From: Trypanosoma brucei
Lineage: Eukaryota
DNA length: 64,000 nucleotides
Assembly: GCA_000002445.1 (NCBI GenBank)
Contig: AL929603.2
Location: 672,001 to 736,000 of the forward strand
Direction of reading: 5' to 3'
Below are positions 6,612-62,456 of the stretch, in pieces (the first letter of the stretch is position 1; each line of letters begins with the position of its first letter). The notes beneath the pieces are model-generated. The model did no database searches. It was not told where the DNA came from and saw only the letters and a list, made by a program, of their open reading frames with translations. Made by a program: the position numbers and the translations under genes.

Positions 6612-7152
6612 GGTGGAGTTCCACCCCTTGAAGTTGTGAGGAAGTATGGAAGGGGTCGATAGCAGGGGGACGGGCACCTCTTTTGCCATAGCTTTCTCAA
6701 CAACTTCACTGGCACACCATTCTTCGACAGAGTATTATTTTACAGTTGGCATTGCTACTTTTCTCTCCGTTTTTTTTTCCTGGCGGTAATCACGCCTTTT
6801 CGCTCTGCCCCGCCCCCCCCCCCCCTCTCCTTTGAAAACTGCTTGTAACGCCGCCGTCCCGTGTCTTCAGCAGGAAGTACGAGTTAGCTCAAGCCTCAGG
6901 AAGAGCTAGTTTTTTACTTTATACACCCAACTTACCACAACCAGGGAGAAAAAAACTAAAAGGACAAATGTGGTAGATCGTCTTATTCCAGTGATGCGTG
7001 AAATAACCTTTCGATCCATCCTGTTTACACTTGAGCTCCCACCATTGTATTGTATCTTCCCAACCCCCTTCGCATGATTGAGACCCCTCTCATTTATGTC
7101 TGCTTTTTTTTTTTCGTCCATCTTCGCACGCATAATTCACAAGCCATAGACA

Positions 7153-42236: not shown

Positions 42237-45203
42237 ATGGGATGTGCATGCATCCGCACGAAACCACCGCGGTTCAAGGGTTTTGTTGTTGACGCGTACC
42301 CAAGCGATAGAAAAAACGACAGCCCGGTGCAGGATACCCTCGGGAAACTGGAAAACTACGTGGCAAGCAACCCGGAGCGTATCCCACGCATATGCCGAAA
42401 GATATCCAAGCTCCTAGCACAGGATGAACGGCGAAAACACACGCAACGAATTCTCGTTGGGCTGAAAATGCTAAAAGAACTCATTGTGAACTCCAGTGAG
42501 GTGAGTGGATTTGTTCCCCACTCCATTGATATATGCGCCCGGCTGTTGAATCAACGGTACACGGCGGAAATACGCATTGCAGTGGCCGATGTGATTACAG
42601 CCCTGTGTTTCAAAGTTGTTGGTCACCACGATAGGGAACACTCATGCCATCTCCTTAACCACAGCAAAGACCGGCTCTTACCGCCGTTACTGCAGATGTG
42701 CATGGAGAGACTGACAGAGGTGCGCAAAAGTAGTGACGATTCAAAGGCAGAAGACGGTGGTGGTGGTTTTACCATGGAACTGATGCGCTGCCATCATGCG
42801 GGCGTCGTGGCACTGGGAAACCTTGCTTTTTGCCTGCAGGGTGCTCTTGCAAACAGTGTAAGAGGGGTGGAAACGGCCTTTTTGCTTAACCTTTTGCATG
42901 CGGTGTCTAATGGCGGCCCTGCGATGCAGGAGCAACAGTTCAACATGCTTCACGCACCCGATATGCATGAATTCAGCGCATCTACGAGTTACAATAGTAA
43001 CGGTGGCGCCGACGGGGGTCCATTCCGCAGTGTGTTGCTACCTGATGACAGAAATGAGTGCACAGCTGTGCGCATTGCCGCCGCTGCATGGGGAATTGGC
43101 GCTATTGCATCTTGTGTGCCGAGCGTCAATATACGTGCCTTCCTGCAGAGTGTTCAAAACTTTATCACCGTTCATCGTGTGTGGTCACCACCGCTCTTTC
43201 CCTGTGTTGTGTTCCGTTCGCTGACCCACGCGATGGAGCGCCGGCCACAGCGGCTTGGCTTCTGCGTATGCAAGTTTCTCCATGACTTCGGCAAAGAGAA
43301 GGCAGTGTCCACGAGCTCTGTAAGCAAGCGGGAAAGGGGAAAAGGGAAGAGAGGAATGATGGCTCAAAATACCGCAGGTGTGCTTTCAGGTGTCTTGCAG
43401 GCCTTGGTTGTGTGTGTGAGTGAAGTGCGAATGATTGGTCGAACACCACAAATTCTGATCGACGAGTGGCCAACTGACGCGGTGTTGATAGACTCGAGCC
43501 TTGTCGATGGGCCAGCAATGGAAATATTTGAATTACATCTCAAGTTGGTGTTGCGATTACTGCAGTGCGCATACAGGTGGCAAAACGCCCCTCAACTGCA
43601 CCAACTTCTGCTTAAACTTCTTTACTGCTTGCAGAGGGTGTTGTCGACCTCCACACAAGGCCCTGTGGTCACTGTGGCACTCCAAGCATTGGCGGAAGCG
43701 GCGTCATACATTCGGACAGTTCCGTTTGCCGACCGCAGCGAACTCTCCGCTGCCTCATTTATCGAGCCATACCTTCAAAGCAGTGGCAGCATGCGGCCAC
43801 ACATCGCACGGGTGCTTGCAGGGTTCCTTTCGGGTGCCCCTCCATCCGTTCATACGCCTCCGGACGAACTTGCGGGAGTTGTGAAGGGTCGGAAAGTGCG
43901 AGAGACGGCGGATTCATCCACTGAGCAACTGGAGGCGCACCAGTCGCCACTTTTGACAGACGGACGTGACGTCGCTACGGCTAAGGAATGGTTGCTCTCA
44001 GTTATTGGTAAAAGCAGGGATGACAATAGTGACGTCTCCGCAACGTGTGTTGTGGAAGTGGGGAGGGTTATGGGAGCCCTTCTGCAGGGGTGCGGAGCAG
44101 CAGAACTCAGTTTCGCGCTTGCGGTCGCTGATATGTTGCAGTCGTTTGCCTCAGACACTAAAAAAAATACGGATCTCCACGTGGCGTGGTCGCATCAGTC
44201 ACTCGTAATTCTTGTTAACTGCTCCATTTTTTGCGGTGCCCCGCAGTTATATCGGTATGCTACAGAACTTCTTGAGCAACGCCACAATGCCGGGGAGCTT
44301 TCCACACATTTTTGCCACAATACTGAAGGCGATACGATACGACTCATGCGTCCAAAGCATGGCAGCCAACAGGAAGGAGGACAAGCCAACTTACAGCCAC
44401 TACGCACACAACCGATGGATGAGCCACCGGTGACAATCCGCGTCGACATGGATGTTGTCATCAATATGGTTGCTGAATATGCAACTGAAGAACTAATGAG
44501 TGCGTTACGCTTCCCTCCGCAAGACAACAGGGCATCAAAAAAAAATACAACCGCAGTCGCGGATAGACTGAAGGCGGCGGTAGCAGACGCCTCCTCAGCC
44601 GTACGGCATTCTAAGCAGAGCGTTGAGCCACGACAACATCAACAAAAGGGCGGTCAATCTACGGTAACAGCGGGAGCACAGCGGGATGCATGGGTGTTTT
44701 ATCCCGGCATACTTGACGTACCAGCACCTGAAGCCGATGGCAAGAGTCAAGCAAGTGAGTGTGGTCCCAGACTCTCTGTGATAGTTGATAGTGAAAAGAT
44801 ACCTGCTCAGGATTCAGCTGAAACAACGCATGGTGTAGGCGGGCAACCGTTGTTTGTTCTGCCGGTACGGGAGCGTATTGCAGAACTGCTTGCAAGGCAT
44901 AATGTTGGGCCAACCACAACATTAATACCTCCGGGCTCCAATTTCACACCACTTCCCCTTCCGTTGGGTGTACGATCACTTCATGTGGACCCGACGGCTG
45001 ACGGCATGCCCGCTGAGGAGCCGGCCCCACAGTCCCGTGCCACTAACGAAAGGAGAGTAAAGCAACATGAATTCAGCAACGGCGGCTGGAAACGCCACAT
45101 GCCAACGAGTAGCAATGGTAGCAAAGTTGTCCACGGTGACAGTGCGGGGAGCGATGACGCTGACGGAGCGTCTTTCAGTTCAATTAGTGCGTCAAGTGTC
45201 TGA
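42237..45203 (+). CDS. EFR3-like protein (candidate plasma-membrane PI4-kinase scaffold) with an N-terminal dual-acylation motif
   Basis: Track ORF starts at GTG 42150. The first ATG, at 42237, gives 'MGCACIRTKPPRFKGFVVDAYPSD...', which parallels the human EFR3A N-terminus 'MPTRVCCCCSALRPRYKRLVDNIFPED'. The downstream match continues: 'LENYVASNPERIPRICRKISKLL' against 'LTFYAVSAPEKLDRIGSYLAERL'. A polypyrimidine tract and AG lie immediately upstream of 42237. Confidence 0.55.
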   Translation: MGCACIRTKPPRFKGFVVDAYPSDRKNDSPVQDTLGKLENYVASNPERIPRICRKISKLLAQDERRKHTQRILVGLKMLKELIVNSSEVSGFVPHSIDICARLLNQRYTAEIRIAVADVITALCFKVVGHHDREHSCHLLNHSKDRLLPPLLQMCMERLTEVRKSSDDSKAEDGGGGFTMELMRCHHAGVVALGNLAFCLQGALANSVRGVETAFLLNLLHAVSNGGPAMQEQQFNMLHAPDMHEFSASTSYNSNGGADGGPFRSVLLPDDRNECTAVRIAAAAWGIGAIASCVPSVNIRAFLQSVQNFITVHRVWSPPLFPCVVFRSLTHAMERRPQRLGFCVCKFLHDFGKEKAVSTSSVSKRERGKGKRGMMAQNTAGVLSGVLQALVVCVSEVRMIGRTPQILIDEWPTDAVLIDSSLVDGPAMEIFELHLKLVLRLLQCAYRWQNAPQLHQLLLKLLYCLQRVLSTSTQGPVVTVALQALAEAASYIRTVPFADRSELSAASFIEPYLQSSGSMRPHIARVLAGFLSGAPPSVHTPPDELAGVVKGRKVRETADSSTEQLEAHQSPLLTDGRDVATAKEWLLSVIGKSRDDNSDVSATCVVEVGRVMGALLQGCGAAELSFALAVADMLQSFASDTKKNTDLHVAWSHQSLVILVNCSIFCGAPQLYRYATELLEQRHNAGELSTHFCHNTEGDTIRLMRPKHGSQQEGGQANLQPLRTQPMDEPPVTIRVDMDVVINMVAEYATEELMSALRFPPQDNRASKKNTTAVADRLKAAVADASSAVRHSKQSVEPRQHQQKGGQSTVTAGAQRDAWVFYPGILDVPAPEADGKSQASECGPRLSVIVDSEKIPAQDSAETTHGVGGQPLFVLPVRERIAELLARHNVGPTTTLIPPGSNFTPLPLPLGVRSLHVDPTADGMPAEEPAPQSRATNERRVKQHEFSNGGWKRHMPTSSNGSKVVHGDSAGSDDADGASFSSISASSV

Positions 45204-45983
45204 TCCGTCAGAGCGCCTCGAAAAAAAAACTCAGGTGGGCGTCGTCTTTGTCAGTTGTTATTTCTGTTACTTTAATTTCTATCGTCAAACAGTGACAATC
45301 CCAATTCCTTTAGTCTGTGTGCCTTTATTTTCTTCCAGCTCGAACTACATGCACTTCCAAACAAGTAAATCTTGTTGCTGTGCAGTAAAGCGCCCGTGCT
45401 ATCCGATGCACGTGCTCGCAAGAGCTTTGCTTTTCGTGTTAGGGAATCGGCTCCCTGGTAAACACGTTAAATATATATATATATATATTTATATTAATAC
45501 ACATATTACCTCCCCTCCTACCTCTGCCAACGGCAAAAAGAAGTGTATAACGCGGTGTTTTTTCACGCTATTTATTATTTTTTTTCCCCCTTTCGGCACA
45601 AAGTATTTATTACACCTCTACTTTCTGTGCCTGTGCGATTTTCTCCTTTCTTTGTGTGCGTGTGCGTGGTGTTTCACCTTTTGGGTGCACTGCCCCTATG
45701 CCAGACACATGAACGAACACACAAACACACCACTGTCGATACGTGTTGCACAATGGCGTCCTTTGGGCACCAATTTCTTCTTACTTATTTATCACTTCTT
45801 CTCTTCATCATATCCCCCTTCTTTCGTTACCCGCATGTATTATTCATTAGGTTGATAAGGGGGGTTAGGGTTAGGTCGAAGGGGAAAAAAGAAAAAAAAA
45901 CGGTAGCTTTCAAAGGGGGAAACACTCAACGCCAGCAAACAAAGTTACACCAACAGCGAGCGAAACGGGTAAAGTGAAACATC

Positions 45984-48602: not shown

Positions 48603-48655
48603 AAAGCTCTTTTTTTTTTCCCCTCTCTCTATCTCTATCTCTTTCTCCCTCTTTT

Positions 48656-48686
48656 TCAAAATAAAATAAAATAAAATAAAAATATA
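48656..48686. repeat. (AAAAT)n microsatellite in the myotubularin 3' flank
   Basis: 'aaaataaaataaaataaaataaaaatat'. Confidence 0.85.
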
Positions 48687-50221
48687 AGTGTGTGAGGAGG
48701 GCGACGAGGAGAAGAGAGTGAGGGGAACAAAAGAAAGGAAGAAGGGGGAAAAAAACGAACAGGGAATTGTGAAATGAGTTGATAAATAAATCGAGAGAAA
48801 AAAAAACAGCATCAACAGGATGGGAAAGAAAAAGAAAGAATTATTTAATTGATCATTTAATTAATCATTTAATTAATTTCAAGAAGGAAAAAAACTGAAT
48901 CATGTTTGTTGAAGAGGGCAACAGAAAAGGAAGGGGAAAATAATGGTAATAACAATGCAAAAGAAGAAGGATTAAGAAGGAGCAGCAACGGTAAAGGGAC
49001 TGTGATAATGGTGCAAGGAAGGAAAAAAGAAAGGCGAAAAGGGGATGAGGAATATGCTTTTGTGTACTTTTACTTTGTTTTGTTTTGTTTCTTAAAGCGG
49101 AATTTAGGAACATTTGTGTCTCTAAAGAAACTTCACACGCACACGTACACACGTATATATACATTTATATGTAAATAAATACACATGTATGTATGTGTGA
49201 AGGAAATGCATTTAAATCTTCACTTCCCCCTTTTTCCTCCTCTTTTTTTTTGTTTCTTCCCTTCATTCTCAACTTATCTTTTTATATTCCCTTCCCGCCC
49301 GCGTTTTCACTCCATTGCTTTGAAAAGGATGTGCGCACATCCGCTCCCATATATATATATATATATTTGTACATATTCGTATTCATGTATTTTGTAATTT
49401 ACTGGACAGGCTGGAAAGTAAATTCTTTTCTGTTTCCATTTTGTTTTGTTGTTTAATTTTTTTTTCTTTTTTGTATTCCGTTTTTTTTTTCGTTGTTGTC
49501 GTTGGCGTTGTGGCTCTGGTTGCTCTGTTTTCCTGTAGGTGCTGTTACTGAAATTATTAGCGATGCCAAATATTTGAGACTCCCTTTTCCTGCACATGCA
49601 ATATGCAACATGCACAGGCTTACGTGAGTAAAGTGTAAATCATTATTTTCTTCTTTATATGTGGAGAAAAAAAAATTTAATGGATTTTCAAAAAAAAAGG
49701 AAAAATACGTTTAAATCCGGATATTTCTCCCCTTCTTTTTTTTTGCATTTCTTTTCCGTTTTGTCATACATACGAGAAAGTAAAAGGAAGACCAAGAGAA
49801 GACCAAAAAGGAAAAAATATATAGGATCTAAGTAAATAAAAGAAAAAGTTTTTGCTCATTACCACCAAAATATAACAAGAGTAAATAAAAGAGAGAAATT
49901 ATTCGGTACAAGCATTTCATTTTATAGATTTTCGCATAAACATCATATCGCAATCCAAGAAAAAAAGAGAGAGATAAAGAGGAATATATATATATATATA
50001 TATATACAAACATAAAGACGGAAAAGTAAAAAAAAAAGAAAAAAAAAGAGCAACAACAACAATATAGCACTCAAGGAGAACAAGCACATTAATTAATCAA
50101 CTGAGGAAGGCACGAGTGCGACCCAGAGGTTACACATACAAAAAAGAGGGAAAAGAACATAAACAAACAAAAATATAAGGAGAAGAGACAGAGAAACAAA
50201 AGGAAATAAATAAATAAATAA

Positions 50222-50980: not shown

Positions 50981-50994
50981 GTTGTTGCTGGCGG

Positions 50995-51068
50995 TTGTTT
51001 TGTTTTTGTTTTTGTTTTTGTTTTGGTGTGTGTGTTGGTGTTGGTGTTGGTGGTGTTTCTGTTGGTGG
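50995..51068. repeat. (TTTTG)n then (TGGTG/TG)n GT-rich tract directly after the stop of the 50222..50980 gene
   Basis: 'gttgtttTGTTTTTGTTTTTGTTTTTGTTTTGGTGTGTGTGTTGGTGTTGGTGTTGGTGGTG'. Confidence 0.85.
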
Positions 51069-51640
51069 ATGAAAGAGGAGAGGAAGAGGAACGTGTATTA
51101 TCTTGTTTTTGAGCCGGTGTTCTCTTGTCTAATGGTAAGTAAAAAAACAAAAACAAAAAAGGACCTGTGGAAAAGGCGTAATGCCTTCCTATTATACATA
51201 CTGACAAGCTTAACGAAAAAAAAAGAAAAGAAAAGAAGGATCTCAGAATGAGGGTTAGTTAAGGTGTATATGTATATATTTTTATATTTTTTTTTCTTTT
51301 GTATTTTTCCATGATAGTTTCATATATCAGGAGTGGCATGTATGTATGTACGTACGAATGAATGAATGAATGTATGTGAGTAAAAGGGGGGGAGGGGAAA
51401 AAGAAAAAAAGAAAAGATGATGCAACGGTGCGTGGATGTGTCGATGCAGTGTTTGAGTTTTGTTTATATAGGTGCCTGTACGTGTGTTCAAAACGCAAGA
51501 TTAGCAGATAATTGATATGCGCGCACAAACACATTTGCATTTACTCATATTCACGTGGCTCGGTGTGCATTGCACTTATTACACATTTATTTATGTTCGT
51601 AAAAGGCATGGACTCATGCGAACTTTGTAACGCTGTCAAC

Positions 51641-51641
51641 G

Positions 51642-51674
<33 letters not shown>

Positions 51675-51675
51675 T
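51641..51675. repeat. (TA)n microsatellite
   Basis: 'gtatatgtatatatatatatatatatatatatatatt'. Confidence 0.85.
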
Positions 51676-52455
51676 CCACTTCTTTTTATTATTTTTCTCT
51701 TTTCTTGTCTTTTGTCTTTTACATTTCAAAAGGGAAGGAAAGTGTGAAGACAGTATGGAGTCAAGTCACTTTAAAAGGTGAGAAAGGATGAAACACGTGC
51801 AATTAAATTGCATATAATATACGAAATGCATATAATTTACATATTATATGAGCAACTGGAAGCAAAAAAAAAACGAAAAAAAAAAAGGCATCATCGCGAA
51901 TATTAAGTGCTTTGGAGATCGGACCGTTAAGACACGCGCAGGCGGGGTTCCCCAAAAGTTATCGGTGCCGTTTTTTTTTTTTTTTAATAAGAATAAAAAT
52001 AAATAAAATTTACCGGGTTCCGTCAATATTTCACAGTGGTGGTCTCCCGATTCGCGACCCGTGCGGGTGGCGCCGTTTTTCATAACAAAAACAAGTTTAA
52101 TGTGCAAAAGGCATTTAAAAAAGAAGGGGAAAAGGAAAAAAGCGGCTGAAAAAAAGCGAAGTGAAGTAAAGTTTTTATTACTATTGTCGCTGCTATCACT
52201 ATTATTATTATTATTACCATTGTAAAATGCCCCTGTTGCTACCTCGTCCATAAATATATGCTTAATGTTCACTTTGCATATCCATGAAGAGTTTGTTTGT
52301 TTTGTTTTGTCGAAACTGTTGGGCTATTCCGTACTGTGACAACAATGGAAACGGAAAAAGAACAACAACAATACTTCCAGGCTATTTACGTTTTCTAATG
52401 TTTCGTTTTGCCTTGCAAATATGTGAAAACGTGGGTTGGTTGAGGCCCCGGAAAG

Positions 52456-53505
52456 ATGTCGACATCAAAATCTGAAAAAGGTGAAGAAAGTTTTGCAGAG
52501 GGAGAAAGTAATAACGAAAGTGATGATGACAGTGGTAATGATGGCGGGCATGAAGCAAATAATAATAATAATAATTGCAACAATGGAAGTGCTGAGGCCT
52601 GCACAAAAGAAGAGACACCGGTGGCACGGAACGGGAATAATAGCGAATCCCCGCCACAACAAGAAGAGAAACCCGCCACCCAGTCCAGTATTCTTGCGCT
52701 TTCTTGGTGTTGGGGAATGGTGGATCTTTTAAGGCTGAAAAATTTCACAGAGTTAACAGAGGTGAATGTTAACAACTGTGTTGACCTCGCAACTCTAATG
52801 GGACTGAAATATTGCAAGAAATTGAAAAGACTTAATCTCCACAAGTGTACAAAACTACAAGACCTGTCGGAAGCGGGGAGTTGCTGGAGGTTGGAGACTT
52901 TGATTGTGTGCGAATGCGAGCGACTCGAAAATTTGAGAGGGTTGGGGGGTCATCAGAGATTATCGTGCGTCAGAATTTCCCGCTGTGGGATGCTCGCCGA
53001 GGTAAACCTCGACGGTACCGTAAAGCTCAAAAAATTGTCCATTGACGAATGCTGGGCACTGAAAGAGGTTTATGTAACAAGATGTAAAACATTAGAATCG
53101 GTTGCACTTGTCGACTGCAGCCGACTAAAGAGTTTGTGTGGGCTCGTCCACCTGGTGTCTCTAAAATCACTTAATCTGGAGGGGTGCATAAGCATCGCGG
53201 AAATCGGGACCTTGAACACAAATAATAAGTTGGAAAGACTCAACCTTGGAAATTGCTTTATGTTGACAGATATGGAATTTCTGAATCACTGCATGAAGCT
53301 GAAGAGAGTGGTGGCTCTGGGAGTCCCCATAGATGAAGTGGTGAAAAGTAATTTAAGGAATAGGGGCGTCAGAGTTATTGATGAAAACGATGTGGATGAA
53401 TCATACAAGTGTTACCAACGACAATATCTGGAACGGGCATCCGTTGCGGAAAAGTCGTTACAGTGGGAGGAAAATGTTAAGGAAATTCTCTCGTACCCTC
53501 GTTAA
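52456..53505 (+). CDS. leucine-rich repeat protein
   Basis: Tandem ~23-25-aa LRRs, e.g. 'LKRLNLHKCTKLQDLS', 'LETLIVCECERLENLRGL', 'LKKLSIDECWALKEV' and 'LKSLNLEGCISIAEI'. The acidic N-terminus has a poly-N run. It is the last gene of the + array. Confidence 0.6.
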   Translation: MSTSKSEKGEESFAEGESNNESDDDSGNDGGHEANNNNNNCNNGSAEACTKEETPVARNGNNSESPPQQEEKPATQSSILALSWCWGMVDLLRLKNFTELTEVNVNNCVDLATLMGLKYCKKLKRLNLHKCTKLQDLSEAGSCWRLETLIVCECERLENLRGLGGHQRLSCVRISRCGMLAEVNLDGTVKLKKLSIDECWALKEVYVTRCKTLESVALVDCSRLKSLCGLVHLVSLKSLNLEGCISIAEIGTLNTNNKLERLNLGNCFMLTDMEFLNHCMKLKRVVALGVPIDEVVKSNLRNRGVRVIDENDVDESYKCYQRQYLERASVAEKSLQWEENVKEILSYPR

Positions 53506-53650
53506 TGTGCCATACAAAATTATAGGCTTCGCAAACTAGTGAACATTATACATTGAACATATGTGCATACATGACTGGTTTTGATTGCATTATGTCGCCA
53601 GCCTTCTAAAGCTGACAACGCTCAGCTTAGTTGACTTACGCTTTTTACAT

Positions 53651-53678
53651 CCCAGCCCCTGCACGTGGTAGGGCTGGG
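53651..53678. other. GC-rich perfect 8-bp inverted repeat (hairpin) with a 12-nt loop containing CACGTG, 150 nt past the LRR gene stop
   Basis: 'CCCAGCCC ctgcacgtggta GGGCTGGG'. Confidence 0.5.
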
Positions 53679-54850
53679 GCACAAATGACACATAAAGAGA
53701 AAGAAGGAAACTAACGCAGAGAAATTGGAAATGAAGAGGGAGGAAGCCCTTCAGGTATTTGTCGTGTGGCATTTATGTTGCAGGTTTGCAAACTTTTTCT
53801 CTCAGTTACTTTACCACAAGGGAATGTAGAGACTGGATGAGGGAATTGTCCGTATGTCCGTCACGACAATGGCGGGGAGGAGGCGTGGGTGGGAAACGTA
53901 ACTCAGGGATGGCTGCGCGTCGCCACGAAAGTGAGACACGGCCTGCCAGAACCCTGAGCCAGGCGAGTAACCAAGCACGAGATCAGGTTAACGAAAACGG
54001 GAAGCAGGAGAACATTGCGAGCTCCTCTTTTTTTTTTCTTTTCCTCATGGTGTGGTGAGGCTGTGTCCCGTTTTAAACACCTAAAACACTTCCTGGCATC
54101 GCCGTCGAAGGGCAGACAGGAATAGACGCGAAATGTAACTGCACTTTTTCGCACTTGCCGGGGCGCGCCGCAGGGGGTGCACAAACAGCTGGGAGGGACA
54201 AGGCTGCCGGCACGCCCCTCATGTTTCATTGGGTTCCGACGCGACGCGGCAACGGGGACTCGCTTACAAACGGATTTGAAGAGAGGGGGACCACCCATAA
54301 GCGAATTTGTATTCGTTTTCCGGCGTGACGCTCCTCTTTTTCTTCCCCCACCTCGCCTGACGATACTGAACAAGCCGCTCACGGGCCTGGGCTCCTCAAC
54401 TTCCGCCGCGGTACGGGCACAGGCAATGGAGCCGTCTCCTCCTTGCCGTGCGGGTGAAAAGAGTTAGCCCCATCGTTCCATTCCGCACTTCGGCACCACC
54501 CTGCATTCAACCCCCAAGGAGAAATTGGCGCGCGGCTACCCACCCTCTGTCGTGGGATATCGCGGGTCCCTGCTCTGTCGGGCCCGTCAAAACGCCAAGA
54601 TCCCTTATTTGCGCGATTTCATCACCCATGCCGACGATCCTTGGGCTCAATCAAAAACCCAGCGCGGCAACAGCAACAAACGACCCACTGCGGCGCACAA
54701 ATTCAAATGAATCACGACTGCCATCCGACGGCATCTCATAAACCGGTATGCGCCGGGGCCCACAGCCGATCGCACACTTCTCTAAGTTATCACATCGTTC
54801 CAAACTCCTACCGGCAGCAAAAAGGCACGCCGAGGAAGCTTTTCTTTCCG

Positions 54851-54867
54851 CCCCCCCCCCCCCCCCC
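54851..54867. repeat. C17 homopolymer (G17 on the minus strand) inside the strand-switch region
   Basis: 'ccgccccccccccccccccccaacc'. Confidence 0.85.
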
Positions 54868-56537
54868 AACCGAAGGACTTACGAGTTTTCTTTAAGCAGG
54901 CAGCAGCGGCAATAAAGAGGGGGGCGATATATTCTGGGTCAAACAGACGCCGAGCAACATTCGCGGCGTCAGACCCAAAGCCAACGGAAGTAAAGAAGTT
55001 GCAACCGTAAAAACAGGAACACAAGCCAAAAATAAAAATGGTAAAGAAAAAAGGAAAAAAATGGGGACTGCGCGACTTAGCACGTGCACATTAACGACCG
55101 CTAAAGCAAAGAATACTCCGCACGTAATGCATTTACGTCGCTTAAACTTCATACGGTAGCAAGCACACGCCACAGCGAGCATAAATACATATCAGATTCA
55201 TCCATTTGCTTCCCATCGTATTGCAACAACGTTAGCAAACCTTTGCTTCATGCTGCAGCCCCTAATGATAAAGGTGACCATCCGATCCCACAACGCCAAC
55301 CACGAAGATCCAAAGCACTCAAGATCGTTGGAGTTATTCACAAAAACATGCTTGGAAGCGTTTCATCGCTCCTTCACACAGTCCCTAAAGGTTTAAAAAG
55401 CGTTACCGCGATAGCAAGGAGACCCAAGTGAGTCACCCGTGCCAAAATTTTGAAGATGCCAACAAACAAATATATATCATCCTAGTTACGGTTCAAATAT
55501 ATTGACCGGTGGGTGGACATGAACACACACATACACACATGCAGTTTGCACATGTCAGGAAATTGTGCAGCAACGTTCTGCCTGAGGAATCAAAAGGTGA
55601 AAACGGCTCCCAAAACTTGCAATAGTGGGCGCCTCAGCTGAGGAAATCTTCACAAAAATAAGGAAAGCAATGGTTAACCCTTCACTTCACTACCCGCAAT
55701 ACTCCACCGGAGGTGCCAATGACAGATGGCCACGCAACGGACTTCACCGCGGGGACTTGGCTCGACCAAACAGTTACCAATACTTGGGCGTGGACCGTTG
55801 AGTGCAATGACACGATAACCACACACCCCCGGCACAACAAAGGTGGAACCATGGATTCGCCTTCGGAACCTCAAGAAGATAGACAACCCGCAGCGTCACA
55901 TTTCATAGAATTCACGTTCAGCTGCGGCTCCTGCGCCAAAAAGAAACTGCACGTCCTTTCCTCCTTCCTTAACAGCCTCCCCCACCCGTCAGTCAGAAGT
56001 TATTGCTCGCATCTTACTACAGGTGCATACGGAAAACAAGCGCCACATTCCCCTACCCACAGCAAAGAGTTGGCGCTCGACCTACCATTCATACCCACAT
56101 TCTTGTTTTCCCCCTTATCTCCCCACATGGTTTCAACTCCCGTCAGCGGTTCACAAGTACCAGTATGCTTCCATAAGGCGAATATCTGACAAGAACAATT
56201 CTTTCCACGATGACCAATGTTTCCTGTGCGAATCACCGCAGTAAGGAAATGAAAGGGGATGAAAACCTTCACTTCCATTACCTTAAACAATGCAAATTTA
56301 CATTACACGACCTTTCTCCCACACATACACCATGTTTCGCAGCGCACAACAGCTATTCGCGAACCCTGAAGTCTGACTTTCCCTCAGAAACAGTCTGGTT
56401 GATAATGTCAAAGAAAACTCTCAAACATTAACCAAAGTCTTCGTAGCTTTTAAAAACATCAAGACCTGCATATCGGTTAATAGCCTACTCCTCTTGCAGA
56501 CTTGCTCGACCATTTGATTACATACCCCAAGTCCTCA

Positions 56538-56855
56538 TTATCGATTGACTCCCCGTTCCAACATATCAAGCAAAAGTTCCAAGTACCTCCTGTTTTGCCG
56601 TTGGAGCTGCTTCATTTGATTAGCAAATTCTACACGTATATCCTGCAGTTGTTTCTGCTGCTCATCTCTCAACTGCTCTGGTTGTGCAGTGGAAATAATA
56701 CCCAACTTTCCCAGCTGTTGGCGCATATCCTCCGCCGTGCGTTCATCGTCATTCAAAGATGGCACAAAGTCGCTCAGAATATCCCTAGATCCCTTCAGCG
56801 TCTCCATCGACGATTTGGATTGATCTGGGGTGGCATTTTCTGTCACTTGAAGCAT
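56538..56855 (-). CDS. small coiled-coil protein (hypothetical, 105 aa)
   Basis: ATG-initiated minus-strand ORF. The sequence is E/Q/R/L heptad-like ('QLRDEQQKQLQDIRVEFANQMKQLQRQNRRYLELLLDML'). The overlapping plus-strand ORF is Leu-rich antisense junk. Confidence 0.35.
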   Translation of the reverse strand: MLQVTENATPDQSKSSMETLKGSRDILSDFVPSLNDDERTAEDMRQQLGKLGIISTAQPEQLRDEQQKQLQDIRVEFANQMKQLQRQNRRYLELLLDMLERGVNR

Positions 56856-59562
56856 CGTTTAGTGGCGCTTTCGCCGCTTGAAAGCCAGTGTGGGAAAGTG
56901 CACCCTGGCCCGTGACATTCCCTTGGCTCATCATCAAAACGGAAAAAATAAAGTCGTGCAGCTGTCTTGCGTCTTCCGTGGCCACAATATTTGTCAGAGC
57001 CTCGACGCCAAGTCAATGTATAGGGAGTTAAGCTCTGTTTTGCCGGCCGACCGCCGATCAACATCCCCCACCAAATCCCGAAGTGGTTTTCTGTGTACCT
57101 CGCCTCCGCGTCCGCAACAAACGTTCCACATAGTCACTCACTTTAACCCTCTTTTTTTGGAGCACGTGCGTGCGGTGCGGCGAATGCAAATAGAAACCGG
57201 TAAATATGTTTACAGTCCAAAGAGAAACAACTCAGTGAAGAAATAGCAAGTTTTTCCGCAATGGTATCGCGATTGCGGCTCCCAATTTTCAACGTTCCTC
57301 AAACTACTGTTAGCCCAGCGACTCCCAACAAAAACAATTATATGGGACCAGATTAAACCGACTCTGACATTTTCACGACAGAACCACCCAGCTGAATCAC
57401 AACTCAGTGGAACCACCCGAACAACAAAAAGCACATGTACTCAAATGGGGGGGGGGTCCGAAGCCTTTCCCCAAACAAGCGCGGTATACCATTTCCTCGA
57501 CAAAATAACACTGACAAAGAAACCGCACACAAACACACACACCTCCCATAAATTTACCCCAGCACATTCACTCACAAAGGCATAACCCGCATGAAAATGC
57601 ATGCGCGTGCATGTGTTTGGCGGCATGTGCCATACGATGCCGCTTAGGAGTCGGGCGCAAAACAGGTTGTGTCTGCCGACATGGAAGAGGAAATTAGTGA
57701 TTTTAGATGCACAACCGAAACTGCGACCACAAAAGAAATGGTTCAAGGCAATGGACCGGGCGGGGGACGGGAACCCCAAGCAGACATAACAACACGGTGA
57801 GAAATAATGAACGAAACATTTACCAGCAGGGAATGGGCCGCGCAAGGCGAACCCACAAGCAGAGAAACACAAACACATTAGCATATATTTATGTCGGTAT
57901 GCTTCACCATACGGTTGTACAGTAACAGACGCCCCGTCGATAGACTCAACCGCTTTTTCTGCTCCTCTTTTTATTTACGGGAAAATGAGGAACTGAAATA
58001 ATAATGACAGACTACAGCGTGTGTTTCACGCCTTGCACACACACCTAATTCGTAGCGACAAACTTACATAGGTTATTACGAGAGTAATCCTCTCCATGTG
58101 GTGAAAAGGTGAAAGGGAAAAGTAGCGCCTAGATGAGTTTTGCGCAACGCCCTAACTTGAACTCAGCTGCTACTGTATTTTTTTATTCTTTTTATTTTTC
58201 AACTTTTAGGACATGCGAACGCAACTGCATTACGCGTTGGGAAATACACACAGCAACAAAGCACTTCGGGATCGTGCCAAAACAACCATGCATGTATGTA
58301 TGTATATTAATAAAACGCTTTTACTTGAAATGTAACCTCCCTAGAGCTCATTGGAAAATATAACGGCCCTTCCCGTTTACCCACCCTCCTCGCACAAAAA
58401 CATACATACGTTTATGCATATGTGGATACATTTATAAGATATGCAATGGAAAGGGTGGAAAGGGAACAACAAGACGGAATTAATGGTAGGAGTCGTCATC
58501 TTACGCCTTTTGTCAGCCCTATCCCATGGCACACGCGCACGCACAGGCACTTGCACTTGCACTTGCACTAAACACACTCCGAAAGCACAAGTCAGCGATT
58601 TGCGTGTAAAAACAAAAACACGAGCAGACTCTACGGATGTAAAACAAAAAAAGCAAGTGGTTTCCATTAAACATAAGGCACGGCAAACAGCACAGATATT
58701 TTTCCACATGTATAACGTCATATTGTCTTACATTTTCCATGATGAGTATCTCACCACTGGAGTCACACAAATGTTCCTCTCATGTATTCGAATACCGACC
58801 TTCAGTACCGTGCCCACAAGTATGCACTCGTGAATTTCAACATCAAACATAATAAAGGCAGTCCATCACTTAAATATAAATGTGTGATAAGTTCGTTTCG
58901 GAGTTCCCGCGCCTTTTTTCTCTCTTCTTTTTCTTGTCCTATTATTGCCTTGTTATTATCATTACTATTGTTGTTGTTATTGCTTTTGTAAGCCCTTTCG
59001 ACTAGTGTGCCAAACTTTCGCAATTCGGAAAGATCCGCCCCCGCTCAGCCCACACATACGCACTTCTCTGTTTTAACAGCACGGAGAGAGACGGATGTGT
59101 TTTCATGCGATAAATGATACACGACTTCGTTTGTTTTGCTTCAGCCATATATGCTGCAAACCCAATCTCACATCTCCTTTATACGGCAAACTTATACGAA
59201 AATGACACATAAAACCAAATAGTAGAGATACCTTTTTTTAAAAAAAAAATTAGAAAAATAGAATTCAGCAAGTTGCCCTGAAAGGAAAGAAGATGTGCAC
59301 CGCCCATAAACCACATACACACATACATGTGTGTGTGTATGTGTGTACATATGTGCAATGAGAAAACGAAAGAATTAATTAACTACATCACTTGAAGAAA
59401 AGGAAAAATACAAGAGAAATTCATGGGAAGAATTTTAAAAATAACCAATAGGAATCATCATGCTCGCCACCAGCATCAGCCACAAATAAATAAATGTGTG
59501 TAAAAGAGAGAGAGAAAAAAAAAAGAGAAGAGCCTTCAAATGGCGGTAAGAGTGAAGTGAAT

Positions 59563-59602
59563 AACAATAATAATAATAATAATAATGATAATAATAATAA
59601 TA
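59563..59602. repeat. (AAT)n microsatellite
   Basis: 'aataataataataataataatgataataataataatatt'. Confidence 0.85.
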
Positions 59603-59722
59603 TTTTCTGTGGTGATAACAATAAAACACAATAAGTAGAAAGTGTAGGGTTGGGGAGAAACAGCTGAGCCGGGGCACAGGAAAAGGAAATAAAAATAAAG
59701 GGAATGAGATGTTGTACACAAA

Positions 59723-60211
59723 CTATTTGGATTTCTTCAGACGACTGAATTCCACAGTGAATTGCGATACGGATACCGCATTTCCCGATTTTTCATCATA
59801 TTCCATCCAATCTGTGCTCAAATCCGCTGCCTCAAACGTCGCTCCCTCCGCTTCCACCACCCACTTGTCATCAATCTCCAATTCCGTAGGCGTCGCTCCC
59901 CGCACTTCAATTATCAGTATTGAATTCCCATCGCCTTTTCCATTATCCTCTTCAGGGCGGTACGTGCCGTAACTCTCGGGGTCAATATGTGCAGTGATGA
60001 GAGTTTTGCATGAAGCGCATTTGAAGGCGGCGTTACGCGTCCCGCCACCGCCGCTGTCACATTCCTCGCTCTCATCAACATAAACAAAATTAGGACTGAA
60101 TTCCCTGCAGGCATCACATGTTACTTTCAAACCCCAGTTGCGAGGACGCATTGGGCGAATACAAACAACACCTTCCGTTTCAGCGGACACCGAAAGGCGG
60201 TAAAGTGGCAT
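59723..60211 (-). CDS. DUF866 / CXXC-motif zinc-binding protein (C1orf123-like)
   Basis: 162 aa with two CxxC pairs ('CDAC...' and 'CASC') at the spacing typical of the DUF866 family. ATG start confirmed on the reverse complement. Confidence 0.5.
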   Translation of the reverse strand: MPLYRLSVSAETEGVVCIRPMRPRNWGLKVTCDACREFSPNFVYVDESEECDSGGGGTRNAAFKCASCKTLITAHIDPESYGTYRPEEDNGKGDGNSILIIEVRGATPTELEIDDKWVVEAEGATFEAADLSTDWMEYDEKSGNAVSVSQFTVEFSRLKKSK

Positions 60212-61820: not shown

Positions 61821-62380
61821 ATACCCCTTCTTTTTCTTTTCTTTTGAGTTGCACAGCCGTGTGGCCGTGAAGAACCGAAAGAAGAGTCAACAGCACTACT
61901 AAGAGGAGGGGGAAAAAAAGCGCACACACAAGTATATCTTACCTGAAGTTATTCAAATATATATAGATATATATATATATATATATTTGATTGCGTGTTT
62001 AATGTATATTTATGTATATATGTATATACTCACACTCGCCTTATTCTTGCGTCCCGCCATCCAAGAAATAAAAAGGAAGCCAGAGATGTTGTGAGCGAAA
62101 GCTGTTGCACACGGGGATGTTAATCAAACAATAAGCAGCAGAAGATGCGGATGAAAAAAACAACAAAAGAAACCATTAAACATGTGGAATGGCGTTCGCA
62201 TCTACACGTATATATGTGTGTATGTGCCCTTGACCGGAAAAAAAAAAAAGTAAGCAAACGCTTCTCTGAAAAGTCTTTTCTTTTTTTTTAAAAAAACAGA
62301 ATCGTTGAATGTACAGTGACAAAACACAGAAGCACACAAACACAAACTCAATCAGACAGAGAGATATACACACACACACA

Positions 62381-62420
62381 TATATATATATATATATTTA
62401 TTTATATATATATATATATC
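62381..62420. repeat. (TA)n compound microsatellite
   Basis: 'catatatatatatatatatttatttatatatatatatatatc'. Confidence 0.85.
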
Positions 62421-62456
62421 ACACCTGCGGTTGATCCTCCTTCAAACAAACATCCC

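What the first reader, a model, noticed from the sequence alone, without database searches (positions are those of the whole stretch)
53506..56537. Convergent strand-switch region containing a GC-rich, ORF-less ~0.8-kb island
The + array ends at 53505, and - strand genes resume at 56538, so the two transcription units converge here. In trypanosomatids such regions are RNA polymerase II termination sites marked by base J and histone variants H3.V/H4.V, and they often host tRNA or snRNA genes. I could not find any tRNA T-loop signature. The segment ~54060-54800 is nevertheless ~57-60% GC, as GC-rich as the coding DNA and unlike the neighbouring ~30% GC spacers, yet has no long ORF. Instead three successive short + strand ORFs (54177-54467, 54448-54741, 54641-54895) sit in frames 0, +1 and +2, the pattern expected for a frameshifted pseudogene. 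A structured non-coding RNA locus is an alternative.
Basis: partly seen in the sequence, partly recalled or inferred. Interest (0 to 1): 0.5.

Follow-up and report, generated by a model that had tools for sequence, protein, structure and literature searches.

The report
Known trypanosome transcription-convergence zone, GC-rich spacer
This is an already studied place on Trypanosoma brucei chromosome 1 where two long gene arrays are transcribed towards each other; it contains a real but apparently non-coding GC-rich patch that is neither a tRNA or small-RNA gene nor a recognisable dead gene.

Summary
The + array ends with a 349-aa LRR protein at 53505, and 54060-54900 is 57.9% GC. That is richer than any other non-coding stretch in the window and than 97.6% of coding windows.

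The pseudogene reading fails. ORFs of this size are expected by chance in 84% of shuffles. No frame has a coding-like codon score. Six-frame searches against Pfam and 5.8 billion proteins find nothing. The ORFs are broken or changed by amino-acid-altering differences in sister strains, and the island varies at the non-coding rate. There is no tRNA, no Rfam match and no excess RNA folding.

The flanking DUF866 gene is Tb927.1.3390. This makes the region the published chromosome 1 convergent strand-switch region (Tb927_01 about 636-642 kb, also called CTU1 or cSSR 1.4). That locus is a strong DCL2-dependent siRNA source, and base J and H3.V restrain read-through there.

The real convergence zone is about 6.2 kb (53506-59722). 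The 105-aa ORF at 56538 is a lineage-restricted orphan.

The island is best read as lineage-specific non-coding DNA at the point where the two transcription units meet. Why it is GC-rich remains unexplained. Interest is low.

The parts
52456..53505 (+). Last conserved gene of the + transcription unit: a 349-aa ESAG8-like leucine-rich-repeat protein.
   Evidence: The ORF is. Its codon score is +0.20, like real genes. It is called as a 348-349-aa gene in T. equiperdum, T. b. gambiense and L004. Variable sites among the four genomes are 0.96%.
53506..59722 (.). The full convergent strand-switch region between the LRR-protein gene and DUF866 (Tb927.1.3390). It is equated with Tb927_01 about 636-642 kb (CTU1, cSSR 1.4).
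   Evidence: No conserved gene lies in it. Sequence conservation with T. congolense, T. vivax, T. theileri and T. cruzi stops at DUF866. The published length is 5,656 nt, against 5,664 nt for window 54059-59722.
54022..54046 (+). U-rich polypyrimidine tract on the + strand, with the next AG at 54058. It is a candidate trans-splice and polyadenylation signal at the left edge of the island.
   Evidence: sequence. The T-run length varies between strains (54028). Function is inferred, not shown.
54060..54900 (.). GC-rich island (57.9% GC). It is non-coding, specific to the T. brucei group as far as could be tested, and contains the GC-skew switch point.
   Evidence: Composition. No coding signal. 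No homology. Folding z-scores run from -1.45 to +1.94. Variable sites are 1.92% against 0.57% in coding DNA (p = 5e-4). GC is 57.6-58.0% in all four T. brucei-group genomes.
54839..54867 (+). Polypyrimidine tract ending in a C17 run, which is a G17 run and potential G-quadruplex on the - strand. It marks the right edge of the island.
   Evidence: The run length is polymorphic (C17, C12 or C14). A similar tract lies at 6796-6824, upstream of the gene at 7153.
54935..54977 (+). Two-part hairpin of 13 bp (6 + 7 bp) just right of the island.
   Evidence: MFE is -20.2 kcal/mol, z = -4.36, with 0 of 200 shuffles folding as well. It lies in a stretch with no variation among the four genomes (54894-55101). 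It was picked post hoc from about 150 windows, so significance is modest.
55043..55061 (-). U-rich polypyrimidine tract on the - strand, with the next AG at 54935. It is a candidate processing signal for - strand RNA entering the island.
   Evidence: Function is inferred.
56538..56855 (-).
   Evidence: Its codon score is +0.24, which is coding-like. The ORF is kept in four genomes, with an in-frame 87-nt deletion in L004. There is no homologue outside the T. brucei group in 5.8 billion or 1.84 billion proteins. Variable sites are 2.16% and mostly change the amino acid.
59560..59602 (-). An (AUU)14 repeat in the 3' UTR of the DUF866 mRNA.
   Evidence: TRF reports (AAT)14.3 on the + strand. Tb927.1.3390 is reported as a ZC3H11 target with an (AUU)n motif in its 3' UTR (PMC3616968).
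59723..60211 (-). First conserved gene of the - transcription unit: the DUF866 / CXXC zinc-binding protein, Tb927.1.3390.
   Evidence: It carries PF05907 and has orthologues at 59-67% identity in eight other trypanosome proteins.

Best explanation
The interval is the left half of a known convergent strand-switch region on Trypanosoma brucei chromosome 1. The region lies between an LRR-protein gene and Tb927.1.3390 (DUF866).

**Mechanism, from published data for this locus.** RNA polymerase II arrives from both flanking polycistronic units and terminates inside the roughly 6-kb zone, in chromatin carrying base J and histone H3.V. The residual overlapping sense and antisense transcripts are diced by DCL2 into siRNAs.

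**The island.** The GC-rich island (54060-54900) is non-coding DNA confined, as far as could be tested, to the T. brucei lineage. It sits where strand composition switches. It is not a tRNA, snRNA or snoRNA gene, not a detectably structured RNA, and not a recognisable pseudogene.

**Inferred, not shown.**
- The island is bracketed by polypyrimidine tracts on the + strand (54022-54046 and 54839-67) and approached by one on the - strand (55061-55043). It is therefore probably transcribed from both strands as low-abundance, processed run-off RNA that contributes to the double-stranded RNA pool.
- Its GC-richness is most likely a historical leftover rather than something kept by selection, because the island varies at the non-coding rate.
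For: **Organism and gene identity**
- The 105-aa ORF is 100% identical to a T. equiperdum protein. Residues 44-105 match a T. brucei TREU927 protein on a 1,064,672-bp contig.
- The DUF866 gene is Tb927.1.3390, and the reported (AUU)n 3' UTR motif is present in the window.

**Published function of this locus**
- Tb927.1.3390 is listed as proximal to a convergent strand-switch region. Antisense log2 RPKM over it is -9.97 in wild type, -4.31 without J, -4.83 without H3.V and -3.11 without both.
- Chromosome 1 region 636,387-642,042 is in the Reynolds table. Nascent dual-strand RNA at cSSR 1.4 (635-637 kb) increases when H3.V is lost.
- Tb927_01_v4 CTU1 (636,000-642,000) yields 28,345 small-RNA reads: 14,746 top strand and 13,599 bottom strand. 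Only 3.4% remain in dcl2-/- cells.

**Mapping of the window to that locus**
- The order of region-proximal chromosome 1 genes in Schulz (330, 530, 2780, 3390, 3730) matches the order of chromosome 1 regions in Reynolds.
- In the collinear L004 chromosome 1 assembly the DUF866 locus lies at 625-646 kb, which places the region at about 629-635 kb.
- The published length is 5,656 nt, against 5,664 nt for window 54059-59722.

**The island is real but not a gene**
- Composition and skew switch.
- Chance-level ORFs.
- Codon scores of -0.05 to -0.13 match the wrong-frame background of -0.043 +/- 0.071, against +0.085 to +0.27 for genes.
- The six-frame sliding scan never reaches 0.1.
- No Pfam, protein, tRNA or Rfam match.
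- Folding z-scores are near 0.
- ORF frames are broken in sister strains.
- Variable sites are 1.92% against 0.57% in coding DNA (p = 5e-4), and not different from the rest of the region (2.58%, p = 0.33).
- Polypyrimidine tracts lie on both strands.
Against: - The window-to-Tb927 coordinate mapping is indirect. It rests on gene ID, rank order, region length and a collinear assembly. No coordinates or primer sequences could be matched directly.
- The published data give totals for the whole 6-kb region. I could not see where within it the siRNAs, base J or H3.V peak, so placing the island in the overlap zone is an inference.
- If the island were neutral, its 58% GC should drift towards the roughly 44% of other non-coding DNA. 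Its persistence is not explained, and the four available genomes are too close (2-3% divergence) to test constraint finely or to polarise changes.
- The stretch 54894-55101, which includes a hairpin, shows no variation at all.
Confidence: 0.7

Rival explanations
1. The island is the last trace of an old gene or retroelement (for example a DIRE, ingi or RIME fragment) that inserted at the end of the + unit and has decayed beyond recognition. Its GC content would be inherited from that source.
For: - The GC content (57.9%) is at or above that of coding DNA and unlike any other spacer in the window.
- Strand-switch regions are known sinks for degenerate retroelements. T. cruzi has GC-rich strand-switch domains, and the T. 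brucei chromosome 1 centromere region carries ingi and DIRE elements (PMC1868937).
- At the equivalent position downstream of DUF866, T. vivax carries a reverse-transcriptase/endonuclease element and T. cruzi an RHS array.
- The island evolves at the non-coding rate.
Against: - No frame matches any of 5.8 billion proteins at E <= 10, or Pfam at E <= 1.
- There is no tblastn match to the T. vivax retroelement or the T. cruzi RHS genes.
- No residual codon bias remains in any frame. Codon bias should decay no faster than GC content does.
- There is no repeat or duplicate elsewhere in the window or the fetched loci.
- The non-coding ends of ingi and RIME could not be tested, because no reference sequence was available.
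Confidence: 0.18
2. The island, or part of it such as the G17 tract and the adjacent hairpin, is a cis-acting element of the termination zone. It could be a G-quadruplex or GC-rich roadblock, a nucleosome or J-positioning sequence, or an ORC binding site. It might help explain why this region is one of the most productive siRNA loci.
For: - The GC-skew switch point lies inside the island.
- A G17 run on the - strand is one of only six canonical G-quadruplex motifs found in the 64 kb.
- G4 ChIP-seq in T. brucei reports enrichment at transcription termination sites (PMC13316426).
- ORC1/CDC6 binds about 40% of convergent strand-switch regions (PMC3607257).
- CTU1 has one of the highest siRNA counts among the units for which counts were seen.
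- The stretch 54894-55101, with the hairpin, is invariant in four genomes.
Against: - The island as a whole varies at the non-coding rate.
- The C/G run is length-polymorphic between strains.
- Similar poly-C tracts are ordinary parts of polypyrimidine tracts elsewhere in the + unit.
- No sequence requirement for termination is known in T. brucei.
- Nothing comparable is conserved in sequence at the equivalent place in other species.
Confidence: 0.08
3. The island encodes a new, lineage-specific functional RNA (a long non-coding RNA or an unrecognised small RNA), or one or more small proteins.
For: - + strand polypyrimidine tracts with downstream AG bracket the island like an ordinary trypanosome transcript unit.
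- Automated annotations of sister genomes place short genes here.
- RBP33-bound, low-abundance non-coding RNAs from convergent strand-switch regions are documented (PMC4162612).
Against: - There is no Rfam match even at E <= 10 that looks real, no tRNA, and no excess folding across the island.
- Codon scores sit at background.
- The ORFs differ between strains by frame-breaking length changes and mostly amino-acid-changing substitutions.
- The short gene calls differ from one assembly to another.
- The substitution rate is that of non-coding DNA.
Confidence: 0.04

Closest known systems
T. brucei convergent strand-switch regions as RNA polymerase II termination zones and siRNA loci. Specifically Tb927_01 CTU1 (Tschudi et al. 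2012), cSSR 1.4 (Reynolds et al. 2016), and the region next to Tb927.1.3390 (Schulz et al. 2016).
   Same: - Two polycistronic units converge here.
- There is no conserved gene in about 6 kb.
- Read-through depends on J and H3.V.
- siRNAs come from both strands and depend on DCL2.
- By gene identity, order, region length and approximate coordinates, it is this very locus.
   Different: - The published work treats the region as a whole.
- In the passages I searched in these papers, no GC-rich island was described for this locus.
- The position of the signals within the 6 kb was not available to me.
GC-rich strand-switch domains of T. cruzi chromosomes 1 and 3, which are centromeric (Obado et al. 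2007, PMC1868937).
   Same: Both are GC-rich, ORF-poor islands sitting between directional gene clusters in a trypanosome.
   Different: - The T. cruzi domains are 11-16 kb, built of recognisable degenerate retroelements (VIPER/SIRE, L1Tc), lie between clusters transcribed towards the telomeres, and confer mitotic stability.
- This island is 0.8-1.2 kb with no retroelement homology, and lies in a convergent region.
- The T. brucei chromosome 1 centromere is described with ingi, DIRE, an rRNA array and a 5.5-kb array of about 30-bp repeats. None of these is in this window.
Convergent strand-switch regions that host tRNA, snRNA or other RNA polymerase III genes in trypanosomatids.
   Same: The genomic setting is the same.
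   Different: No tRNA, no Rfam family at gathering threshold in the whole window, and no B-box match in the interval.
Frameshifted ('unitary') pseudogenes.
   Same: Successive short ORFs lie in three frames within GC-rich DNA.
   Different: There is no parent homologue, no residual codon bias, ORF lengths are at chance level, and frames are not conserved between strains.

Membership tests
Trypanosomatid convergent strand-switch region / RNA polymerase II termination zone | Two directional gene clusters on opposite strands point towards each other. | tested here: met
   All long ORFs up to 53505 are on the + strand. Conserved - strand genes start at 59723. GC skew changes sign at about 54.2 kb.
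Trypanosomatid convergent strand-switch region / RNA polymerase II termination zone | Enrichment of base J and H3.V/H4.V, and read-through when they are removed. | not testable with these tools
   The sequence cannot show this. Literature for this locus: antisense RNA over Tb927.1.3390 appears in J-null, H3.V-null and double-null cells (PMC4721952 S2 Data), and nascent dual-strand RNA rises at cSSR 1.4 in the H3.V knockout (PMC4721609).
Trypanosomatid convergent strand-switch region / RNA polymerase II termination zone | siRNAs from both strands, dependent on DCL2 (specific to T. brucei). | not testable with these tools
   Literature: CTU1 at 636-642 kb gives 28,345 reads, split evenly between strands, falling to 3.4% in dcl2-/- cells (PMC3447711 additional file 3). 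The mapping of the window to CTU1 is indirect.
tRNA / snRNA / snoRNA gene locus | Cloverleaf or a covariance-model match; internal A and B box promoter. | tested here: not met
   ARAGORN finds 0 genes. Rfam gives 0 hits at gathering threshold in 64 kb, and only chance-level hits at E <= 10 in 53000-57500. The B-box pattern gives 8 matches against 11.6 expected, none in 53506-56537.
Frameshifted pseudogene | Detectable homology of the conceptual translation to a functional gene. | tested here: not met
   A six-frame query against 5.8 billion proteins gives nothing at E <= 10. Pfam on six frames gives nothing at E <= 1. tblastn against orthologous loci of four species gives nothing.
Frameshifted pseudogene | Residual codon bias or 3-base periodicity in the reading frames, and an ORF pattern beyond chance. 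| tested here: not met
   Codon scores are -0.05, -0.11 and -0.13, against a wrong-frame mean of -0.043 and genes at +0.085 or more. The best of six frames stays below 0.1 across 53800-55100. 84% of shuffles reproduce the ORF pattern.
Degenerate retroposon (ingi / RIME / DIRE) | Reverse-transcriptase or endonuclease coding remnants. | tested here: not met
   There is no Pfam RVT or Exo_endo_phos match, no protein match, and no match to the T. vivax element in L006.
Degenerate retroposon (ingi / RIME / DIRE) | Nucleotide similarity to the non-coding ends of ingi/RIME, or to the conserved 77-79-nt 5' signature. | not tested
T. cruzi-type GC-rich centromeric strand-switch domain | A domain of 10 kb or more made of degenerate retroelements, with Topo-II cleavage and mitotic stability. 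| tested here: not met
   The island is 0.8-1.2 kb and has no retroelement homology. The T. brucei chromosome 1 centromere is described with ingi, DIRE, an rRNA array and 30-bp repeats, and none of these is in the window. Topo-II cleavage cannot be tested here.
Structured non-coding RNA | Thermodynamic stability beyond shuffled controls, and compensatory changes. | tested here: not met
   For 120-nt windows across 54060-54860, z-scores run from -1.45 to +1.94 on both strands. Only a 43-nt hairpin at 54935-54977, outside the core, stands out (z = -4.4). There is too little divergence to test covariation.

The most novel reading that the evidence does not exclude
The GC-rich island and its invariant right edge (G17 tract plus hairpin, 54839-55101) form a lineage-specific cis-element or non-coding RNA unit. 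It would set where the two polymerases stop and overlap, and would explain why this particular region (CTU1) is among the most productive endogenous siRNA loci in T. brucei.
Probability: 0.08. Interest if true: 0.55.

Novelty: already known. Interest (0 to 1): 0.2.

Why it matters
No sequence determinants of RNA polymerase II termination are known in trypanosomes. A defined DNA element inside a well-studied convergence zone would therefore be useful if it turned out to be functional. As it stands, the work mostly clears things up:

- The region is a locus already characterised for base J and H3.V-dependent termination and for siRNA production.
- The pseudogene and RNA-gene ideas are not supported.
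- The true extent of the convergence zone is about 6.2 kb.

The only residue of interest is an unexplained compositional outlier (58-59% GC) at the strand-composition switch point.

Tried and rejected
- **tRNA or known RNA family:** ARAGORN and Rfam (gathering and E-value modes) find nothing real. The weak snoU2-30, mir-1892, SmY and mir-499 hits (E = 1-9, 17-22 bits against gathering scores of 39-86) are noise.
- **Pseudogene:** Pfam on six frames, a six-frame concatenated query against 5.8 billion proteins, and tblastn against T. vivax, T. theileri, T. cruzi and T. congolense loci all find nothing.
- **Retroelement relic:** there is no match to the reverse-transcriptase element in T. vivax L006 or to the RHS genes in T. 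cruzi L009.
- **Duplicate or repeat:** only low-complexity polypyrimidine matches appear in the window and loci.
- **Inverted duplication:** the two 349-aa ORFs at 52456 and 60771 have equal lengths, but the proteins are unrelated and no inverted repeat links them.
- **Synteny:** I looked for an intact gene at the same place in other species. Conservation stops at DUF866, the left arm is not syntenic, and the T. congolense contig ends 4.2 kb past DUF866, before the equivalent position.
- **Centromere:** rejected. There is no rRNA, ingi or 30-bp repeat array here, and the published chromosome 1 centromere is a different region.
- **Direct coordinate proof:** the cSSR 1.4 primers are not published. 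The distance columns in Schulz S6 could not be interpreted consistently. Gene IDs Tb927.1.3360-3385 appear in no searchable paper.
- **The 105-aa ORF as a conserved gene:** an exhaustive phmmer search against 1.84 billion representatives finds only itself.
Full report
**1. What the window is**

The 105-aa ORF at 56538-56855 (-) is 100% identical to a Trypanosoma equiperdum protein. Its residues 44-105 match a 62-aa 'hypothetical protein, unlikely' of T. brucei TREU927 carried on a 1,064,672-bp contig.

The window aligns over more than 14 kb at 98.4% identity to T. equiperdum and 97.2% to T. b. gambiense chromosome 1. It aligns at 96.7-97.4%, in two blocks, to another T. brucei-group chromosome 1 assembly, L004.

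**2. Checking the observation**

- The + array ends with a 349-aa ESAG8-like LRR protein (52456-53505) whose codon score is gene-like.
- The island is real. 54060-54900 is 57.9% GC, and the best 700-nt window (54166-54865) is 59.3%.
- No other intergenic 700-nt window in the 64 kb exceeds 47% GC. Coding windows average 53.0% (sd 2.9), and only 2.4% of them reach 57.9%.
- The island's immediate neighbours are 43-47% GC, not about 30%. The 32-36% GC spacers lie further away.
- GC skew changes sign at about 54.2-54.3 kb, inside the island.
- The three + ORFs are at the stated coordinates, and from those coordinates they lie in frames 0, 1 and 2.

**3. The frameshifted-pseudogene reading**

It fails every test I could apply.

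- *Chance.* In DNA of this composition stop codons are rare. 84% of first-order Markov shuffles of 53800-55100 give at least 3 open stretches of at least 84 codons on one strand. The longest observed open stretch (186 codons) is reached in 22% of shuffles.
- *Codon usage.* I built a codon log-likelihood model from 16 long genes of the window. It gives +0.085 to +0.27 per codon for the training genes. Held-out conserved genes score similarly (252-aa gene +0.17, DUF866 +0.18). The three ORFs score -0.05, -0.11 and -0.13. That is indistinguishable from wrong-frame open stretches inside genes (-0.043 +/- 0.071, n = 214), and they lack the GC1 > GC3 > GC2 pattern of genes.
- *Sliding scan.* The best of six frames in 60-codon windows never reaches 0.1 anywhere in 53800-55100. 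Most windows over genes score 0.13-0.42.
- *Homology.* Pfam on all six frames finds nothing at E <= 1. A concatenated six-frame query of 53750-55200 against 5.8 billion proteins finds nothing at E <= 10. tblastn against the orthologous loci of T. vivax, T. theileri, T. cruzi and T. congolense finds nothing, even though these include a reverse-transcriptase/endonuclease element and RHS genes.
- *Strain comparison.* In ORF2 the strain differences seen in the translations all change the amino acid. The C terminus of ORF3 shifts frame with the length of the poly-C run (C17, C12 or C14). The 159-aa - strand ORF is broken by a 1-nt T-run difference.
- *Rate of change.* Variable sites are 1.92% in the island against 0.57% in pooled coding DNA (Fisher p = 5e-4). 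The island does not differ from the rest of the region (2.58%, p = 0.33; 1.94% for 56856-59722) or from an AT-rich spacer (2.2%).

**4. The RNA-gene reading**

- ARAGORN finds no tRNA in 64 kb.
- Rfam has no hit at gathering threshold in the window. In E-value mode over 53000-57500 there are only four hits, at E = 1-9 and 17-22 bits, against gathering scores of 39-86.
- A B-box pattern is no more frequent than chance and is absent from the interval.
- Folding z-scores of 120-nt windows across 54060-54860 range from -1.45 to +1.94 on both strands.
- Two local hairpins stand out at the edges: 53650-53680 in the LRR-protein 3' UTR region, and 54935-54977 (z = -4.4). They were picked post hoc from about 150 windows.

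**5. Surroundings and comparative evidence**

- The 105-aa ORF has coding-like codon usage (+0.24). It is kept open in four genomes, one of which carries an in-frame 87-nt deletion.
- However, it has no homologue outside the T. brucei group, either in the word-indexed 5.8-billion search or in an exhaustive phmmer search of 1.84 billion representatives. Its variable sites (2.16%) mostly change the amino acid. It is an orphan of uncertain status.
- The first conserved - strand gene is DUF866 at 59723-60211, with orthologues at 59-67% identity in eight other trypanosome proteins.
- Nucleotide and protein conservation with T. congolense, T. vivax, T. theileri and T. cruzi stops at DUF866. The left-arm genes (LRR protein, 252-aa protein, myotubularin-like protein) are absent from those loci. 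DUF866 therefore ends a conserved unit, and what lies beyond it is lineage-specific.
- The T. congolense contig ends 4.2 kb past DUF866, so presence of the island there is undetermined.

**6. Identification with a published locus**

- Tb927.1.3390 is 'Hypothetical, conserved, DUF866'. It has an (AUU)n motif in its 3' UTR (PMC3616968).
- The window has (AAT)14 at 59560-59602, which is (AUU)14 just downstream of the DUF866 stop on the - strand.
- Only one T. brucei-group DUF866 cluster was found.
- Schulz et al. 2016 list Tb927.1.3390 among genes within 1 kb of a convergent strand-switch region. Antisense log2 RPKM is -9.97 in wild type, -4.31 in J-null, -4.83 in H3.V-null and -3.11 in double-null cells (PMC4721952 S2 Data).
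- The chromosome 1 genes in that sheet (330, 530, 2780, 3390, 3730) follow the same order as the chromosome 1 regions of Reynolds et al. 2016. Exactly one region, 636,387-642,042, falls between the neighbours at 517.9-520.9 kb and 724.0-731.4 kb.
- Its length of 5,656 nt compares with 5,664 nt between the end of the short ORF at 54058 and DUF866 in the window.
- In the collinear L004 chromosome 1 the DUF866 locus lies at 625-646 kb, which places the region at about 629-635 kb.
- Tschudi et al. 2012 list the same place as Tb927_01_v4 CTU1 (636,000-642,000). It gives 28,345 small-RNA reads (14,746 top strand, 13,599 bottom strand). These are unaffected in dcl1-/- cells (94%) and reduced to 3.4% in dcl2-/- cells, and the count is among the highest of the units I could see.
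- Reynolds et al. also report increased nascent dual-strand RNA at 'cSSR 1.4, 635-637 kb' when H3.V, or H3.V and J, are lost.
- The mapping is indirect but coherent. I could not match primers or coordinates directly.

**7. How it most likely works**

*Shown, from the literature for this locus.* Polymerases from both units enter the zone. Base J and H3.V limit how far they go. Overlapping transcripts are diced by DCL2.

*Inferred from sequence.* The island is where the two units meet.
- It contains the skew switch.
- It is bracketed by + strand polypyrimidine tracts: 54022-54046 (next AG at 54058) and 54839-54867 (next AG at 54874).
- It is approached by a - strand U-rich tract at 55061-55043 (next AG at 54935).
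- Poly-C runs on the + strand are ordinary components of such tracts elsewhere in the + unit.

The island is therefore probably transcribed on both strands as low-abundance processed RNA, of the kind reported to be bound by RBP33 at convergent strand-switch regions.

*Unexplained.* The cause of the GC-richness is unknown. A decayed insertion is the leading idea, but residual codon bias is absent. Since that bias should decay no faster than GC content, a former coding sequence is unlikely. A non-coding source, or a biased process such as gene conversion, is not excluded.

**8. Comparison with known things**

- The region is a member of the class of T. brucei convergent strand-switch and termination zones, and indeed a named instance of it.
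- The closest analogue for a GC-rich ORF-poor island in a strand-switch region is the T. cruzi centromeric domain (PMC1868937). That domain is 11-16 kb, made of recognisable retroelements, and lies between clusters transcribed towards the telomeres.
- The T. brucei chromosome 1 centromere is a different region, described with ingi, DIRE, an rRNA array and 30-bp repeats, none of which is here.
- G-quadruplex enrichment at termination sites (PMC13316426) gives the G17 tract some context, but the tract is length-polymorphic.

**9. Verdict**

The general strand-switch interpretation is right and already published for this locus. The pseudogene and structured-RNA ideas are not supported. What remains is an unexplained compositional outlier that evolves at the non-coding rate. 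Interest is low (0.2). The entity is already known. A small probability (about 0.08) remains that the island and its invariant right edge act as a functional cis-element or RNA unit.

Noticed in passing
window 56538-56855 (-): A 105-aa ORF has strongly coding-like codon usage (+0.24 per codon). It stays open in four T. brucei-group genomes, one with an in-frame 87-nt deletion. It has no homologue outside the group and mostly amino-acid-changing differences. It may be a young orphan gene or a chance ORF, and part of it is annotated 'hypothetical protein, unlikely' in TREU927.
   Followed up: yes
window 59560-59602: An (AAT)14 repeat corresponds to (AUU)14 in the 3' UTR of the DUF866 mRNA. It matches the reported ZC3H11-binding (AUU)n motif of Tb927.1.3390 (PMC3616968). 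The repeat region differs in length between strains (67 indel columns in 59400-59599).
   Followed up: partly
window 54935-54977 and 54894-55101: A 13-bp two-part hairpin (z = -4.4) lies in a 208-nt stretch with no difference among four genomes. The surrounding region varies at 2-2.6%.
   Followed up: partly
window 53650-53680: A GC-rich hairpin (CCCAGCCC...GGGCTGGG) lies about 150 nt downstream of the LRR-protein stop codon, in a 352-nt stretch (53575-53926) without variation among four genomes. It could be a 3' UTR element.
   Followed up: partly
window 54851-54867: The C17 homopolymer is the longest G or C run in the window. It is length-polymorphic (C17, C12 or C14) among T. brucei-group genomes. 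It is one of six canonical G-quadruplex motifs found in the 64 kb, all of them C-runs on the + strand.
   Followed up: yes
L006 13214-18341 (T. vivax); L009 11727-20489 (T. cruzi): At the position equivalent to this convergence zone, just downstream of DUF866, T. vivax carries a non-LTR retroelement (RVT_1 plus endonuclease) and T. cruzi carries a tandem RHS gene array. The end of this conserved unit is a recurrent site of lineage-specific insertion.
   Followed up: partly
L008 10850-11450 (T. theileri): A 61-64% GC, homopolymer-rich island lies immediately downstream of DUF866, in a locus that is otherwise 17-49% GC. It shows no sequence similarity to the T. brucei island. It may be a positional analogue or an assembly artefact.
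   Followed up: no
window 48603-50221, 50981-52455, 61821-62456: The last genes on both sides of the convergence zone are separated by unusually AT-rich spacers (32-36% GC, against 43-50% elsewhere in the window). These are full of (TA)n, (A)n and (T)n tracts and are highly indel-polymorphic between strains.
   Followed up: no
window 45067-45855 (+): A 262-aa ATG ORF overlaps the 3' end of the 1017-aa gene and has a negative codon score (-0.08). It is probably not a gene.
   Followed up: no
L003 and L004 gene calls between DUF866 and the LRR-protein gene: Automated annotations place different sets of short genes (61-159 aa) across the convergence zone in different assemblies: seven in T. b. 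gambiense and three in L004. These calls are inconsistent, as expected for non-coding DNA.
   Followed up: partly
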